Source: Escherichia phage CJ20. From it: a stretch of DNA of 64,000 nucleotides. The stretch is taken from sequence record MT533174.1; one strand, given 5' to 3'. Position numbers and translations under genes: made by a program. This document shows, in pieces, positions 6,270 to 11,016 of the stretch (position 1 is the first letter of the stretch; each line of letters starts with the position of its first letter). The notes below the pieces were generated by a model. The model ran no database searches and was not told the origin of the DNA. It worked only from the letters and a program-made list of their open reading frames with translations.

Positions 6270-7052
6270 TTACACACGGCTTCCGTGGATGGTTCCTACG
6301 TTCTGCCAAGAAGGAGCATTGCCTGTAACGGCTGCACCGCCGGCCCCACCGCCTGATGTTGAGACTTTCTTGCCCCAACCATTTCCCCCGGCAGCAGCTA
6401 CGTTACCACCATTACCGGCACCCCACTGTCCACCAGCGTTACCACCTGAACCAGCCGCAGTTAGAGACGCGTTACCACCCGGTTGATACCCAACGGAGCC
6501 ACCGAGTCCGAATGGACGGCCGCCACCACCACCACAGGTGGCATTAGTTGGCCATCTATTTTGCAATGATGCAGCGCCGCCGCCACCGCCGCCACCGGCG
6601 ATAGAACCATTATTACGAATACGGAGTTTAGTTCCGGCAGCGTTATGGATTGCTGTACCACCTGCTTGGCCTGCAGAACCATTGGTAGAACCGTTACCTC
6701 CTCGACCATAAACAGTTACACCGCTGTTAATAGTAAGCTGTATATACGCATTAGGTAAGTTGCTAGGGAATTCCAGGCAAGGGTTTCCTCTGCTGTTAGA
6801 TACTAAGTCACCAGTGATTGTAATAACCACTGGCGCACCACCTTGGGCTCTCATCCAGTTAATAAGGGAGTTTCTATCATAATTATGGTTGGCGCCTATA
6901 GATAGATAAATTTCTTTTGATTGTCCTGCCATCGAACCCATCCAACCCGGTACTGCAACTCGCACATCTCGCATTGCCGCATCCATCCAACGTTGTCCCG
7001 TTTCATCTACGGCAGATTGTCCAATCCAACCAGGAACACCTACAATTGCCAT
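6270..7052 (-). CDS. 38: long tail fibre adhesin gp38, T2-type glycine-rich receptor-recognition protein (260 aa)
   Basis: Multiple poly-Gly islands separating short variable segments; located directly downstream of gene 37. Confidence 0.75.
   Translation of the reverse strand: MAIVGVPGWIGQSAVDETGQRWMDAAMRDVRVAVPGWMGSMAGQSKEIYLSIGANHNYDRNSLINWMRAQGGAPVVITITGDLVSNSRGNPCLEFPSNLPNAYIQLTINSGVTVYGRGGNGSTNGSAGQAGGTAIHNAAGTKLRIRNNGSIAGGGGGGGAASLQNRWPTNATCGGGGGRPFGLGGSVGYQPGGNASLTAAGSGGNAGGQWGAGNGGNVAAAGGNGWGKKVSTSGGGAGGAAVTGNAPSWQNVGTIHGSRV
6330..6620. repeat. low-complexity GGN/CCN codon repeats (glycine islands of gp38)
   Basis: Runs of ccgccgccacc-type triplets on plus strand encoding Gly stretches on minus strand. 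Confidence 0.7.
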
Positions 7053-7063
7053 TAAAAATCCTT

Positions 7064-7081
7064 AGAGGGCCGAAGCCCTCT
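7064..7081 (-). promoter_or_regulatory. stem-loop between genes 37 and 38 (AGAGGGC-UUCG-GCCCUCU) just upstream of the gp38 RBS
   Basis: Perfect GC hairpin with UUCG loop in the 31 nt gap between gp37 stop and gp38 start. Confidence 0.5.
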
Positions 7082-7083
7082 TG

Positions 7084-10000
7084 TTAATTAAGTTTTGCTT
7101 CAAGTTCTTTAACTTTAGCCGACAGAGTTTTAACTGCTTCAATTAACAGAGCAACTTGTGCCTGGGTTGAAACGGTAAGAACTTTGTTACCTTTAATGTC
7201 GTCAACTTCACGAATAGCTTCAGGTAATACTTTTTCTAAACTCTGTGCAATAACACCTGCTTCGGTATGAACAACTTCGCCACCAATATAATCAGCTTTA
7301 TCATAGATTAAACCGTCTAGCTGTTCAACCTTATCAAGAGCATTTTCAATCGGTTTGAAGTTAGATTTCAAACGAATATCAGAACGAATATAAACGTTCG
7401 GGGCGTTAATATTCATATCCGAATAAGTATCACCTGACTGGAATCTCATGCGGCGGGCGGCATTAGTAATAATATCAAAAATACCGTCACCGCTCTGTTT
7501 AATACCAGTGTCATTATCACCGATTGCAATCGAGTTGCCACCAAGTGCGTTATTGATGTTAATACCAAATGAATTCATTTGATTAACACCAGATACAGTA
7601 GCGTTATTTAATACAAAGCGGTTAGCCCCGCCTGGAGTTTTTTCAAAGTAAGCAATATAGTTAGTTTCATCGGCAATTTCAATACGGTTACCGCGCGTAC
7701 CATCACCTGCATGAAATATACTCATATGTCTTGGATTAGCACCAGACTTATTAAAGTGAATATAACCATTATCTTTGATAACAATATCATTATAGAATGT
7801 GGCAAAGTCGCGAACAGATATGCCATTATTCATTGATACTTCACCAGTCGACAAGCTAATTGCGAAAGGACGTTTACTGTTCCAATCACCATTGACTGTA
7901 GCTGCGCCATCAGTAGCATTTTTATCTGTAAACAGAATATAAAAACTTCCACCGTCGTTTCGTAACATTGTAGCAACAGAACCAGTTTTATCATAGTTAC
8001 TTCTGATACGAATACCGGTTTGGTTATTAATAGCTATTTCAGAATCAGCTTCATAACGTTTTACTTTACCTGTGTCTACCAGGTTGTTAAGCATGTTAGC
8101 TACTTGGCCTTTAACATGATCAACTGGCAAAGAATCTACTGGGTTTTGAGTAGGACCAAAAGCGCCGATAACTTCTACGGTAGCATTATCAACTGCATGC
8201 CAGGTATAAGCTAATTGGTTGGCATAAGTACCAGATTCAACATAGACATCATATGTATTTCCTGAGGTATTAACTACAGCAATATCAGTAAGACCCGCAG
8301 CTGTTCTGGTATACATCACGGCGTTTAAACCTAATGGGCGGTCATTACCAGTACGAAGAACAATTTCTGTTATAGCACACTGCGTAAACAGTCCAGTATT
8401 AAATCCTTTACCACCAGTTACGGTAAATGAAGCAGTAGAAGTAGATTGTGGCATTGTTACTGTTGCAAACTTATACCATCCAGCAGTTGCACCGTATGTT
8501 ACAAATCCGGAATTGACCTTACGGTTTAATGTGGTATTCAAGTTAACAAAATTACCAGAACCACCTGTAATATTACCAGTTCTATCAAATCTGACTTGGC
8601 CTGCTATTAAATCGCGAGGTGAAATAAAATCACCGTTTTTAATAAATTCCCATCCAAAATCAGCGGTCTGTGGACCTGAAGAACCGTTATCTCCGCCACC
8701 ATGGTAATGAACTCGGAAATTACCATTATTAATTAAAGTCCCCAATGAATAGCAACCGTTACCTTGAACATAACGCTGTTTCAAAATCGGAACATATGTA
8801 CCAGTATCAGCTCTATCAATATTCATATAGAACGGCGCACGGACATTTTCATTATTCTGGGAAGCAAATGAACCCGCACCAGCTGGTCGAACTGCGTCAG
8901 TGCATTCGGCATCAATATACGATGCTTGTCCTATCTGCATACGGAAATTAGGAGAAATGCGACTATTACTAGTAACAACAACAAGTTTGCTATCATTGTC
9001 CACAGTAATCATATTACCGCCAGCTCCATCATCGCCTAACGTAACAGAATGGCGCATTTGTACCATACCATTATTAAGACTAATACTTAGCGGGCGGAGA
9101 TTACTTATTCCACCACTTTCACCAGCGTCTTTAGGAGTTGGAATAATATGCAATGCCGCTTCTGAACGACGGAAAATAGCACCGTATTCAGCGTTCCAAA
9201 TTCTTAATGCATCTGCTGTTCCACCAATTTTTACTTGTCCGGTAATAGAAGAACCACCACGAATAGTAGCCCCATTTTCAAAAGTAACGCCACCGCCAAA
9301 TGTACCTTTACCGGAAGCAGTAATATCACCAAGGCCTATGATATGGCCTGTTTCAACAGTTCCGTTAAACTTAAAGTTGACAGGTCCTATACCTCCGGCA
9401 ACGGCCGGATTTGTACGCTGGGCATAAAAATAATAACCTTGCGAATCTGATACTTCAAATACAGTTTCTCTGTTACCGCCGCCTGCATTAAATGAATTAC
9501 CCCAAGCTTTAAGTGTTACAGTGTTTTTGTTTTGACCGTTACGAAGACCTGCGTCCCAATTGATAGTTTTAGTACCATCAACACCAGAAGGCGCTTTAAA
9601 CGATAAAGCATTAGTATTATCATCACCATTTAAAAACAAGCCCGTACGCATAGAAATACGCTGGGTGGAGTTAATTGTTCCGTCCGCTCTAATAGCAACG
9701 CTATTGGAACCGGTTTTAATATCTAAAATTCCTGGTTCAACAATTAAACCTTCTGCCATACCAACAGCCATACGACCCGTGCCACGGAAATAGTGATACA
9801 TTTTAGAATTGCTGTTATAACCGATATGAGTCTGACCATCACCGTTATTATTACCATCAACCTCGGTACGCGCAGTAAACATTGCTTGGTTGTTATTTGG
9901 GAAATCCCAAGTAGAACCAGAATCTCGACTATAACCAACCATCAATTTTTTAGTACTATTAATACCGTTATTAAGAATAGTTGCAGATGAAATACCATTG

Positions 10001-11016
10001 GCCATTAAATCGATAACGCCGTCACGGACCCATTTAATACCTGTATCGTTATCACCAATGGCAATACCTATAGAAATAGCTGAATCTAATGGATAACGAC
10101 CATTTACGCCACTATCAGGAAGACCTACCGAAATAGATTTACCTGCAGTAATACGCCCACTAGTATCAAACGCCCATTGGAAAGATGAAGGCCCAATACC
10201 AGTCCACCAAGAAATTTCTTGTGGCTTACCTTTGCGACAATCAGCAATTTCATGGAAAATACTTGATGCACTTGATGCGCGTAATTTACGCAAATAGTTT
10301 AAACCGTTAGTAGTATCATCAGAACCATCAGCTGGTGGGTTATAAACCCAGGTCGGTAATGAAACCCAGTCATAGCCGATGTTGGCATTTGCAACAAATG
10401 ATTTTGTACTGAAATTAATATTTTTGGTAACAATTTCAGGTCCAGTGATAATACCGTTGGCCGAGTTAATATTACCCGAAGCCGAAATATTACCTGCGCG
10501 GACCTCAATATTGCCATTATCTACAATAAAACTACCATTACGATTAAAAGTCCAATATTTTGAATCACCCGCTTCATTAATATAATGGAATTTAAAACTG
10601 CCTTCGCTTACTAATGTACCTGCTGAAAAAGTGCCGTCTTTATAACGTTGCTTAATCAAAGGGTGATATTCTGATACTGAGGTAGTTGAACTCAAATCCG
10701 TAAAGATAGGTGCTTTAGTCAGATGTTGGTTTGCCCATGCGCCATTACCGGCGGTCTTAGGTAAAAATTCAATATATTTACCGGCATAAACAAATTGGTT
10801 ACCGTTAAGGTTAAATGTCCCATTTTGAAGAACATCCCCATCAATAGTTCCGCCTTTTGCAAAGCCCAAATCAATAATCTGTCCTTGGTCGGATTTAGTA
10901 AAAATAGTGCGGTCACGCAAGTTAATAGCCAGTTCGCCTTCATCTAACTGAGCTGCAGTAGGCTTGGCTCCTGGTGTTTTACTTCTTTTAAATTGTATCG
11001 ATTTTAAAGTAGCCAT
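7084..11016 (-). CDS. 37: long tail fibre distal subunit gp37 (1310 aa) with C-terminal intramolecular chaperone domain
   Basis: N-terminus and central blocks match recalled T4 gp37; C-terminal SDIRLK motif plus coiled coil. Confidence 0.85.
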   Translation of the reverse strand: MATLKSIQFKRSKTPGAKPTAAQLDEGELAINLRDRTIFTKSDQGQIIDLGFAKGGTIDGDVLQNGTFNLNGNQFVYAGKYIEFLPKTAGNGAWANQHLTKAPIFTDLSSTTSVSEYHPLIKQRYKDGTFSAGTLVSEGSFKFHYINEAGDSKYWTFNRNGSFIVDNGNIEVRAGNISASGNINSANGIITGPEIVTKNINFSTKSFVANANIGYDWVSLPTWVYNPPADGSDDTTNGLNYLRKLRASSASSIFHEIADCRKGKPQEISWWTGIGPSSFQWAFDTSGRITAGKSISVGLPDSGVNGRYPLDSAISIGIAIGDNDTGIKWVRDGVIDLMANGISSATILNNGINSTKKLMVGYSRDSGSTWDFPNNNQAMFTARTEVDGNNNGDGQTHIGYNSNSKMYHYFRGTGRMAVGMAEGLIVEPGILDIKTGSNSVAIRADGTINSTQRISMRTGLFLNGDDNTNALSFKAPSGVDGTKTINWDAGLRNGQNKNTVTLKAWGNSFNAGGGNRETVFEVSDSQGYYFYAQRTNPAVAGGIGPVNFKFNGTVETGHIIGLGDITASGKGTFGGGVTFENGATIRGGSSITGQVKIGGTADALRIWNAEYGAIFRRSEAALHIIPTPKDAGESGGISNLRPLSISLNNGMVQMRHSVTLGDDGAGGNMITVDNDSKLVVVTSNSRISPNFRMQIGQASYIDAECTDAVRPAGAGSFASQNNENVRAPFYMNIDRADTGTYVPILKQRYVQGNGCYSLGTLINNGNFRVHYHGGGDNGSSGPQTADFGWEFIKNGDFISPRDLIAGQVRFDRTGNITGGSGNFVNLNTTLNRKVNSGFVTYGATAGWYKFATVTMPQSTSTASFTVTGGKGFNTGLFTQCAITEIVLRTGNDRPLGLNAVMYTRTAAGLTDIAVVNTSGNTYDVYVESGTYANQLAYTWHAVDNATVEVIGAFGPTQNPVDSLPVDHVKGQVANMLNNLVDTGKVKRYEADSEIAINNQTGIRIRSNYDKTGSVATMLRNDGGSFYILFTDKNATDGAATVNGDWNSKRPFAISLSTGEVSMNNGISVRDFATFYNDIVIKDNGYIHFNKSGANPRHMSIFHAGDGTRGNRIEIADETNYIAYFEKTPGGANRFVLNNATVSGVNQMNSFGININNALGGNSIAIGDNDTGIKQSGDGIFDIITNAARRMRFQSGDTYSDMNINAPNVYIRSDIRLKSNFKPIENALDKVEQLDGLIYDKADYIGGEVVHTEAGVIAQSLEKVLPEAIREVDDIKGNKVLTVSTQAQVALLIEAVKTLSAKVKELEAKLN

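What the first reader, a model, noticed from the sequence alone, without database searches (positions are those of the whole stretch)
7084..7400. gp37 ends in an apparent self-cleaving intramolecular chaperone domain
The last ~100 residues of the 1310 aa distal tail fibre protein contain SDIRLK followed by a coiled-coil-like segment (VALLIEAVKTLSAKVKELEAKL). This resembles the autoproteolytic C-terminal chaperone domains of other phage fibres and tailspikes. It fits a T2-type fibre tip in which the C-terminus is removed and the separate gp38 adhesin binds the tip.
Basis: partly seen in the sequence, partly recalled or inferred. Interest (0 to 1): 0.45.

Follow-up and report, generated by a model that had tools for sequence, protein, structure and literature searches.

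The report
Self-cleaving chaperone domain ending gp37
The last 99 residues of this T2-like phage's distal tail-fibre protein are a standard self-cleaving folding-helper domain that is cut off so the separate gp38 adhesin can cap the fibre tip; this has been known for phages T2 and S16 for years, so the finding is correct but ordinary.

Summary
The ORF at 7084..11016 (- strand) encodes a 1310-aa gp37. SDIRLK lies at aa 1212-1217, and a heptad-patterned terminal helix lies at about aa 1284-1309.

- Pfam Peptidase_S74 ("chaperone of endosialidase") matches aa 1212-1268 with E=7.5e-15 (55 bits, cutoff 22).
- All 97 database homologues carry that domain.
- The dyad lysine (K1217) is invariant, and the dyad serine (S1212) is present in 91 of 93 aligned sequences.
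- A homologue profile hits solved chaperone domains: S16 gp37, MyRF ICA, a T5-type L-shaped fibre and GA-1.
- An AlphaFold model (pLDDT above 90 across the domain) finds only such domains as its top 11 PDB matches.

The next gene (6270..7052, -) is a T2/S16-type gp38 adhesin. The cleavage-site sequence NVYIR^SDIRLKSNFKPIENALDKV is identical in phage T2, whose gp37 is reported in the literature to be C-terminally processed. The terminal 138 aa are 100% identical to phage VR20 (Gaprivervirus).

The predicted cut is R1211^S1212. It would release a 10.8 kDa fragment and leave a 129.6 kDa mature gp37. Cleavage itself was not and cannot be tested here.

Novelty: already known. Interest: low.

The parts
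7084..11016 (-). Gene 37, the long tail fibre distal subunit precursor: 1310 aa, 140.4 kDa.
   Evidence: ORF list and translation. PHROG 1699 'long tail fiber protein distal subunit', E=3.6e-298. Molecular weight.
7384..11016 (-). Predicted mature gp37, aa 1-1211, 129.6 kDa, ending ...NAPNVYIR.
   Evidence: Inferred from the cleavage position of homologues. S16 is cut at DLNVS^SDRRIKK and the fPS phages at DVYIR^SDGRLKI (PMC7917993). T5 is cut at T1263^S1264 (PMC4690869). The GA-1 crystal chain 3GUD begins at SDERHK, aligned to S1212. Molecular weight.
7087..7383 (-). C-terminal intramolecular chaperone / autoprotease domain (Peptidase S74), aa 1212-1310: 99 aa, 10.8 kDa, predicted to be released after trimerisation.
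   Evidence: Pfam PF13884, E=7.5e-15. Profile hits to 6F45_A, 7DC3, 8JOV, 8HQZ and 3GUD. AF2 model with block-mean pLDDT 92-98 across the domain. Foldseek top 11 matches are 7DC3, 3GW6 and 3GUD chains.
7213..7383 (-). Stretch matched by the Pfam Peptidase_S74 profile, aa 1212-1268.
   Evidence: profile positions 1-57 of 58, 55.4 bits.
7381..7383 (-). Codon of Ser1212, the predicted catalytic nucleophile and first residue of the released fragment. The scissile bond is R1211-S1212.
   Evidence: Coordinates. Ser in 91 of 93 aligned homologues. Equivalent to endoNF S911, T5 pb1 S1264 and MyRF S587 (PMC4690869 and PMC8326128).
7366..7368 (-). Codon of Lys1217, the predicted general base of the Ser-Lys dyad.
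   Evidence: Coordinates. Lys in 93 of 93 aligned homologues. Equivalent to endoNF K916, T5 K1269 and MyRF K592.
7090..7167 (-). C-terminal alpha-helix, aa 1284-1309, with a 3-4 heptad pattern; predicted to form the trimeric coiled coil of the chaperone.
   Evidence: AF2 helix H112-137 of the 138-aa query, pLDDT 94-98. Heptad spacing. A trimeric coiled coil is described for the T5 and MyRF domains.
7498..7524 (-). Conserved fibre-tip motif IGDNDTGIK, aa 1165-1173, just upstream of the cleavage site; part of the gp38-bearing tip module.
   Evidence: Aligns with SIAIGDNDTGLRWGGDGI of the S16 gp37 construct crystallised with gp38 (6F45_A). Position.
6270..7052 (-). Gene 38, a T2/S16-type tail-fibre adhesin (260 aa) with an N-terminal attachment domain and polyglycine-rich receptor-binding domain; predicted to dock on the tip exposed by the cleavage.
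   Evidence: Pfam GP38 E=2e-82 and Gp38_N E=7.6e-17. PDB 6F45_D E=1.4e-45 and 9V85_A. 83% identical to T2 gp38.
7064..7081 (-). Intercistronic hairpin AGAGGGC-UUCG-GCCCUCU between the gene 37 stop codon and the gene 38 ribosome-binding site.
   Evidence: RNA fold -15.6 kcal/mol, z=-2.2. The 33-nt stretch aagagggcttcggccctctaaggatttttaatg that contains it is identical in phage T2.

Best explanation
The last 99 residues of gp37 (aa 1212-1310; window 7087-7383, - strand) are a Peptidase-S74 intramolecular chaperone domain.

Proposed mechanism, in steps:
1. Three gp37 chains are brought into register by the domain, chiefly through its C-terminal helix (about aa 1284-1309), which forms a three-stranded coiled coil. 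This nucleates folding of the trimeric fibre tip from the C-terminal end.
2. Once the trimer is formed, Lys1217 activates the hydroxyl of Ser1212, which attacks the R1211-S1212 peptide bond.
3. Each chain cuts itself, and the 3 x 10.8 kDa chaperone trimer dissociates.
4. This leaves a 129.6 kDa mature gp37 ending in ...NVYIR. [quoted passage not shown]

Shown here: domain membership, conservation of the Ser/Lys dyad, the fold, the gp38 type, and identity of the site to T2. Inferred from homologues: the chaperone role, the exact scissile bond, release of the domain, and gp38 docking.
For: - Pfam PF13884: E=7.5e-15, 55.4 bits against a cutoff of 22, profile positions 1-57 of 58, beginning exactly at S1212.
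- 97 of 97 homologues found in the 5.8-billion-protein search carry PF13884.
- In their alignment K1217 is invariant (93/93), S1212 is present in 91/93 and D1213 in 86/93.
- The profile of that alignment hits S16 gp37 (6F45_A, E=7e-22), MyRF ICA (7DC3, 4e-16), tail fibre 8JOV (2e-14), L-shaped tail fibre 8HQZ (2.6e-5) and the GA-1 neck appendage chaperone 3GUD (1.2e-4). The 3GUD crystal chain starts at the aligned Ser.
- The AF2 model has 10-residue block means of pLDDT 92-98 across the domain.
- The top 11 Foldseek PDB matches are all intramolecular chaperone structures, with probability 0.87-1.00: 7DC3, 3GW6 and 3GUD.
- T2 gp37 has the identical NVYIRSDIRLKSNFKPIENALDKV and is 74% identical over the terminal 138 aa.
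- Processing of T2/T6 gp37 and capping by gp38 are documented (PMC3157838, citing Drexler et al. 1986).
- S16 autocleavage at S^SDRRIKK, exposing the gp38 dock, and the analogous DVYIR^SDGRLKI site are described in PMC7917993.
- The Ser-Lys dyad mechanism was verified by mutagenesis in T5 pb1 and MyRF (PMC4690869 and PMC8326128).
- The downstream gp38 is the adhesin type.
- The gp37 tip plus chaperone (aa 1150-1310) and the gp38 N-terminus are 92-100% identical to VR20, while the preceding 350 aa of gp37 are only 38-72% identical. This fits a co-inherited lock-and-key module.
Against: - No experimental data exist for this phage. Cleavage, release and gp38 docking are all inferred.
- The neighbouring-subunit arginine that senses correct folding in endoNF (R897) and T5 (R1250) lies 14 residues upstream of the Ser. 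It has no counterpart at that spacing here. The arginines present are at -1, -21, -23 and -24, so the trigger for cleavage may differ in detail.
- At 99 aa the domain is shorter than the T5 (133 aa) and S16 (113 aa) versions. In the monomer model it has only a short hairpin where T5 has 50 Å 'tentacles'.
- The model is a monomer, so the trimeric coiled coil was not tested.
Confidence: 0.93

Rival explanations
1. The S74-like domain is present but is a non-cleaving relic. It stays on the mature fibre as a permanent coiled-coil end piece, and gp38 binds elsewhere or to it.
For: Cleavage was not observed here. The upstream sensor arginine is not at the canonical -14 spacing.
Against: Both dyad residues are intact and sit in a strongly conserved motif. 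T2 gp37, with an identical site, is reported to be processed. In S16 the gp38 docking face is created only by removal of the domain. [quoted passage not shown]
Confidence: 0.04
2. The domain is removed by a host or other phage protease rather than by autoproteolysis. This was the open reading of the 1986 T2 observation.
For: The original T2 work, as cited, showed processing but not its mechanism.
Against: Homologous domains self-cleave when expressed alone in E. coli, and cleavage is abolished by the Ser-to-Ala change (T5) or by either the Ser-to-Ala or the Lys-to-Ala change (MyRF). The same dyad is conserved here.
Confidence: 0.02
3. The SDIRLK-plus-helix resemblance is a chance motif in an ordinary fibre C-terminus.
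For: None found.
Against: Pfam E=7.5e-15, PDB profile hits, fold matches, and 1536 phage records with a homologous C-terminus.
Confidence: 0.01

Closest known systems
Phage T2 gp37 C-terminus (Tequatrovirus T2, AP018813.1)
   Same: It occupies the same position in the same gene, followed by the same type of gp38 and the t holin gene. It is 74% identical over the last 138 aa, with an identical NVYIRSDIRLKSNFKPIENALDKV around the cut site and an identical intercistronic hairpin. T2 gp37 is reported to be proteolytically processed at its C-terminus and capped by gp38.
   Different: There are a few substitutions in the chaperone body. The gp37 shaft and the hypervariable loops of gp38 differ.
Escherichia phage vB_EcoM_VR20 gp37 (Gaprivervirus vr20, KP007360.1)
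   Same: The terminal 138 aa are 100% identical. The 24 kb of window backbone tested (20000-44000) is about 95% identical.
   Different: VR20 gp37 is 1322 aa and only 38-72% identical over aa 800-1150. gp38 differs in aa 180-240. The record annotates the protein only as a 'long tail fiber protein', with no domain note.
Salmonella phage S16 gp37-gp38 tip (PDB 6F45)
   Same: The gp37 construct aligns from the IGDNDTG tip motif through the SDxRxK site to the terminal helix. The gp38 aligns over nearly its full length, E=1.4e-45. The last 113 residues of S16 gp37 are autocleaved, exposing the gp38 dock.
   Different: The residues before the cut differ: DLNVS in S16, NVYIR here, as in the fPS Yersinia phages. 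The S16 chaperone is 113 aa against 99 aa here.
Endosialidase (K1F endoNF) and T5 pb1 C-terminal intramolecular chaperone domains (PDB 3GW6, 4UW8-type; MEROPS/Pfam S74)
   Same: They share the Ser-Lys dyad at the domain's N-terminal boundary, the alpha/beta body and the C-terminal trimeric coiled coil.
   Different: They are longer (T5: 133 aa) and have long beta-hairpin 'tentacles' that grip the mature domain. They carry a sensor Arg 14 residues upstream that has no equally spaced counterpart here. Structural overlap with 3GW6 is partial (TM 0.36).
MyRF ICA domain (PDB 7DC3)
   Same: It is the best structural match (probability 1.00, TM 0.57) and matches the profile at E=4e-16. The Ser-Lys dyad and the coiled-coil-driven trimerisation are the same.
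   Different: It is a eukaryotic membrane transcription factor, in which cleavage releases a DNA-binding trimer rather than maturing a fibre.

Membership tests
Peptidase S74 / C-terminal intramolecular chaperone domain (Pfam PF13884) | Profile match above the curated gathering score | tested here: met
   55.4 bits against a cutoff of 22, E=7.5e-15, profile positions 1-57 of 58 at aa 1212-1268. 58.4 bits for the isolated C-terminus.
Peptidase S74 / C-terminal intramolecular chaperone domain (Pfam PF13884) | Catalytic Ser at the N-terminal edge of the domain, with Lys five residues downstream (Ser-Lys dyad; endoNF S911/K916) | tested here: met
   S1212 and K1217. Ser in 91/93 and Lys in 93/93 aligned homologues. 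They align with the SD(R/E)R(I/H)K of S16 and GA-1. The role of the dyad is taken from PMC4690869 and PMC8326128.
Peptidase S74 / C-terminal intramolecular chaperone domain (Pfam PF13884) | Location at the extreme C-terminus of a trimeric phage fibre or tailspike protein | tested here: met
   The domain occupies the last 99 of 1310 aa of a protein matching the long tail fibre distal subunit family.
Peptidase S74 / C-terminal intramolecular chaperone domain (Pfam PF13884) | Characteristic alpha/beta fold ending in a long helix | tested here: met
   AF2 model with block-mean pLDDT 92-98 over the domain. The top 11 Foldseek PDB matches are 7DC3, 3GW6 and 3GUD chains.
Peptidase S74 / C-terminal intramolecular chaperone domain (Pfam PF13884) | C-terminal helices form a trimeric coiled coil that drives trimerisation | tested here: inconclusive
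   There is a clean 3-4 heptad pattern at 1288/1291/1295/1298/1302/1305/1309 and a confident 26-residue helix. Only a monomer could be modelled, so the oligomeric state was not tested.
Peptidase S74 / C-terminal intramolecular chaperone domain (Pfam PF13884) | Folding-sensor Arg from a neighbouring subunit upstream of the cut (endoNF R897, T5 R1250, at -14) | tested here: inconclusive
   There is no Arg at -14. Arginines lie at 1211 (-1), 1191, 1189 and 1188. MyRF also lacks this interaction, so it is not universal. A trimer structure is needed.
Peptidase S74 / C-terminal intramolecular chaperone domain (Pfam PF13884) | Actual autoproteolytic release of the domain | not testable with these tools
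   This needs protein chemistry. It has been shown for T5 and MyRF, is reported for S16, and processing is reported for T2 with an identical site.
T2/S16-type long tail fibre tip (processed gp37 capped by gp38 adhesin) | A gp38 adhesin gene immediately downstream of gene 37, with an N-terminal attachment domain and a polyglycine-rich receptor-binding domain | tested here: met
   Pfam GP38 (E=2e-82) and Gp38_N (E=7.6e-17). PDB 6F45_D and 9V85_A. Poly-Gly runs are visible in the translation. The gene order 37-38-t matches T2 and VR20.
T2/S16-type long tail fibre tip (processed gp37 capped by gp38 adhesin) | Conserved tryptophans in the gp38 N-terminus that plug into the gp37 tip | tested here: inconclusive
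   W9, W22 and W37 lie within the Gp38_N match. The first 40 aa are 100% identical to VR20 gp38, and the first 20 aa and the next 20 aa are 90% and 80% identical to T2 gp38. Their equivalence to the S16 'prong' tryptophans (PMC7917993) is inferred, not checked residue by residue.
T4-type gp37 (receptor-binding needle on gp37 itself, with gp38 acting as a separate chaperone) | No self-cleaving C-terminal domain, and a gp38 that is a chaperone absent from virions | tested here: not met
   gp37 ends in an S74 domain, and the gp38 matches the adhesin families. The T4 arrangement is described as a distinct, lambda-derived replacement (PMC3157838).

The most novel reading that the evidence does not exclude
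This 99-aa domain is a minimal S74 chaperone. In the monomer model it lacks the long 'tentacle' hairpins, and it has no sensor arginine at the canonical -14 spacing. It might therefore couple cleavage to trimer folding by a different trigger, for example R1211 at P1 or coiled-coil formation alone, as in MyRF. Alternatively, the released trimer might have a further role, such as timing gp38 loading.
Probability: 0.08. Interest if true: 0.3.

Novelty: already known. Interest (0 to 1): 0.08.

Why it matters
The main value is correct annotation. Mature gp37 in this phage should end at R1211, and the receptor-binding part is gp38, not the gp37 C-terminus. This matters when host range is engineered or predicted, because chimeric fibres must keep the gp37 tip, the chaperone domain and the gp38 N-terminus together. 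No open question is advanced. Processing has been reported for T2 since 1986, the mechanism has been established for the family since 2010, and the gp37-gp38 tip structure has been known for S16 since 2018.

Tried and rejected
- A single-sequence phmmer search of the last 105 aa against the PDB found only S16 gp37 with confidence (E=1.8e-4) and MyRF weakly. A profile of 93 homologues was needed to reach 8JOV, 8HQZ and 3GUD.
- EndoNF (3GW6) was not reached by sequence, only by fold.
- The Dunne et al. 2018 S16 structure paper could not be fetched. Its content is cited second-hand through PMC7917993.
- tRNA and Rfam scans of the whole window found nothing.
- The T4-type arrangement, with gp38 as chaperone, was considered and rejected on the Pfam evidence.
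- A chance motif was considered and rejected.

Full report
**Observation**

The window carries a 1310-codon ORF on the - strand at 7084..11016. It matches the long tail fibre distal subunit family, PHROG 1699, over its full length with E=3.6e-298.

- SDIRLK occurs once, at aa 1212-1217. The Ser codon is 7381-7383 and the Lys codon is 7366-7368.
- The segment VALLIEAVKTLSAKVKELEAKL is aa 1288-1309.
- Its strongly hydrophobic residues at 1288, 1291, 1295, 1298, 1302, 1305 and 1309 follow a regular 3-4 heptad spacing.
- The pattern S-D-x-R-x-K occurs only three times in all six frames of the window. The other two cases lie in stop-interrupted frames.

**What it is**

Four independent lines of evidence agree.

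- Profile: Pfam Peptidase_S74 (PF13884, "chaperone of endosialidase") matches aa 1212-1268 with E=7.5e-15, 55.4 bits against a gathering score of 22. The match covers profile positions 1-57 of 58 and begins exactly at S1212.
- Homologues: a search of 5.8 billion proteins with the last 138 aa returned 97 homologues, all carrying PF13884.
- Conserved residues: in an alignment of 93 sequences K1217 is invariant, S1212 is present in 91 and D1213 in 86.
- Solved structures by sequence: the profile of that alignment hits five PDB entries.
  - The S16 gp37 construct 6F45_A (E=7e-22)
  - The MyRF ICA domain 7DC3 (4e-16)
  - A tail fibre, 8JOV (2e-14)
  - An L-shaped tail fibre, 8HQZ (2.6e-5)
  - The GA-1 neck-appendage chaperone 3GUD (1.2e-4), whose crystallised (released) chain begins at the Ser of SDERHK, aligned to S1212
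- Fold: an AlphaFold2 model built on the alignment has 10-residue block means of pLDDT 92-98 across the domain. It shows a short helix, two beta-hairpins separated by a helix, and a 26-residue terminal helix at aa 1284-1309.
- Fold search: the top 11 Foldseek matches in the PDB are all intramolecular chaperone structures, namely 7DC3, 3GW6 (endoNF) and 3GUD, with probabilities of 0.87-1.00. Nothing else scores below E=0.3.

**Context**

The gene immediately downstream (6270..7052, - strand, 260 aa) matches Pfam GP38 (E=2e-82) and Gp38_N (E=7.6e-17). It also matches the S16 gp38 chain 6F45_D with E=1.4e-45 and is 83% identical to T2 gp38. This is the adhesin type of gp38, not the T4-type chaperone.

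The gene order 35-36-37-38-t is that of T2 and VR20. The 24 kb of window backbone tested (20000-44000) is about 95% identical to Escherichia phage vB_EcoM_VR20, a Gaprivervirus in the Tevenvirinae.

The last 138 aa of gp37 are 100% identical to VR20 gp37 and 74% identical to T2 gp37. T2 has the identical sequence NVYIRSDIRLKSNFKPIENALDKV around the site. Homologous C-termini occur in 1536 phage records.

**Mechanism**

The literature on homologues gives the mechanism.

- In T5 pb1 and endoNF the domain is a trimer built around a central alpha-helical coiled coil. The Ser at its N-terminal edge is activated by the Lys five residues downstream and cleaves the preceding peptide bond. Ser-to-Ala blocks cleavage, and the Ser leaves with the chaperone (PMC4690869).
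- In MyRF, S587A and K592A each abolish cleavage, and the C-terminal coiled coil drives trimerisation (PMC8326128).
- In S16, the last 113 residues of gp37 are autocleaved at DLNVS^SDRRIKK after trimerisation, which exposes the gp38 docking surface. In the fPS Yersinia phages the aligned site is DVYIR^SDGRLKI (PMC7917993).
- In T2 and T6, gp37 is proteolytically cleaved at the C-terminus and capped by gp38 (PMC3157838, citing Drexler et al. 1986).

Applied to this protein, I predict the following. The chaperone-driven trimer forms first. Each chain then cuts itself at R1211^S1212. A 99-aa (10.8 kDa) fragment is released from each chain. The mature gp37 is 129.6 kDa and ends in ...NVYIR, and gp38 binds this end (masses).

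Domain membership, the dyad, the fold, the gp38 type and identity to the T2 site are shown here. The chaperone role, the exact bond, release of the domain and gp38 docking are inferred.

**Points of difference or doubt**

- The domain is short: 99 aa against 113 in S16 and 133 in T5. In the monomer model it has only a short hairpin where T5 has 50 Å tentacles.
- The neighbouring-subunit Arg that senses correct folding in endoNF and T5 lies 14 residues upstream of the Ser. It has no equally spaced counterpart here. The arginines present are at -1, -21, -23 and -24. MyRF also lacks that interaction, so it is not a defining feature of the family.
- The trimeric state could not be modelled with the available tools.

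**Rivals**

- A non-cleaving relic domain is unlikely. The dyad is intact, and T2, with an identical site, is processed.
- Cleavage by an external protease is unlikely, because homologues self-cleave in isolation.
- A chance motif is excluded by the profile and fold results.

**Verdict**

It belongs to a curated Pfam/MEROPS family. The same domain has been described for T2-like gp37 proteins, and the identical sequence is already deposited in VR20. Interest is low.

**Seen in passing**

- Relative to VR20, gp37 is mosaic. Residues 800-1150 are 38-72% identical, whereas the tip plus chaperone (aa 1150-1310) and the first 40 aa of gp38 are 92-100% identical. This is consistent with the lock-and-key co-inheritance of the gp37 C-terminus and the gp38 N-terminus proposed by Trojet et al..
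- gp38 differs from both VR20 and T2 mainly in aa 180-240, which corresponds to hypervariable loops.
- A C(UUCG)G hairpin sits between genes 37 and 38 and is identical in T2.

Noticed in passing
window 7064-7081 (- strand): A 7-bp hairpin with a UUCG tetraloop (AGAGGGC-UUCG-GCCCUCU) lies between the gene 37 stop codon and the gene 38 Shine-Dalgarno sequence and ATG. It folds at -15.6 kcal/mol, and the 33-nt stretch containing it is identical in phage T2. It looks like one of the classic T-even intercistronic CUUCGG hairpins (that attribution is from my own knowledge). Its role here, whether mRNA stability or translational coupling, was not tested.
   Followed up: partly
window 7566-8616 (- strand; gp37 aa ~800-1150): gp37 is mosaic relative to its closest relative VR20. 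Identity falls to 38-72% over aa 800-1150. It is 90-100% over most of aa 1-800 (82% in the aa 550-600 block) and 92-100% over aa 1150-1310. This suggests a recombinational swap of the distal shaft that spared the tip, chaperone and gp38-attachment module.
   Followed up: partly
window 6330-6512 (- strand; gp38 aa ~180-240): gp38 differs from both VR20 and T2 gp38 mainly in this stretch between the glycine-rich motifs: 52-70% identity, including a 3-residue deletion. This stretch corresponds to hypervariable receptor-binding loops, so receptor specificity may differ from VR20 and T2.
   Followed up: no
window 10033-10059 and 7498-7524 (- strand): The motif IAIGDNDTGIK occurs twice in gp37, at aa 320-328 and aa 1165-1173, each time followed by a similar (W/Q)xxDG(V/I)xD(L/I) stretch. 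The second copy aligns with the S16 gp37 tip in 6F45.
   Followed up: no
window 9082-9477 (- strand; gp37 aa 514-645): Pfam Gp34_trimer, the trimerisation domain of the proximal fibre subunit, matches inside gp37 with E=3.3e-8 and two stretches. This indicates shared shaft modules between the proximal and distal half-fibres.
   Followed up: no
window 1-64000: The 24 kb tested (20000-44000) is about 95% identical to Escherichia phage vB_EcoM_VR20 (Gaprivervirus), so the phage is a close relative but not identical. No tRNA genes and no Rfam families above gathering score were found in the 64 kb.
   Followed up: partly
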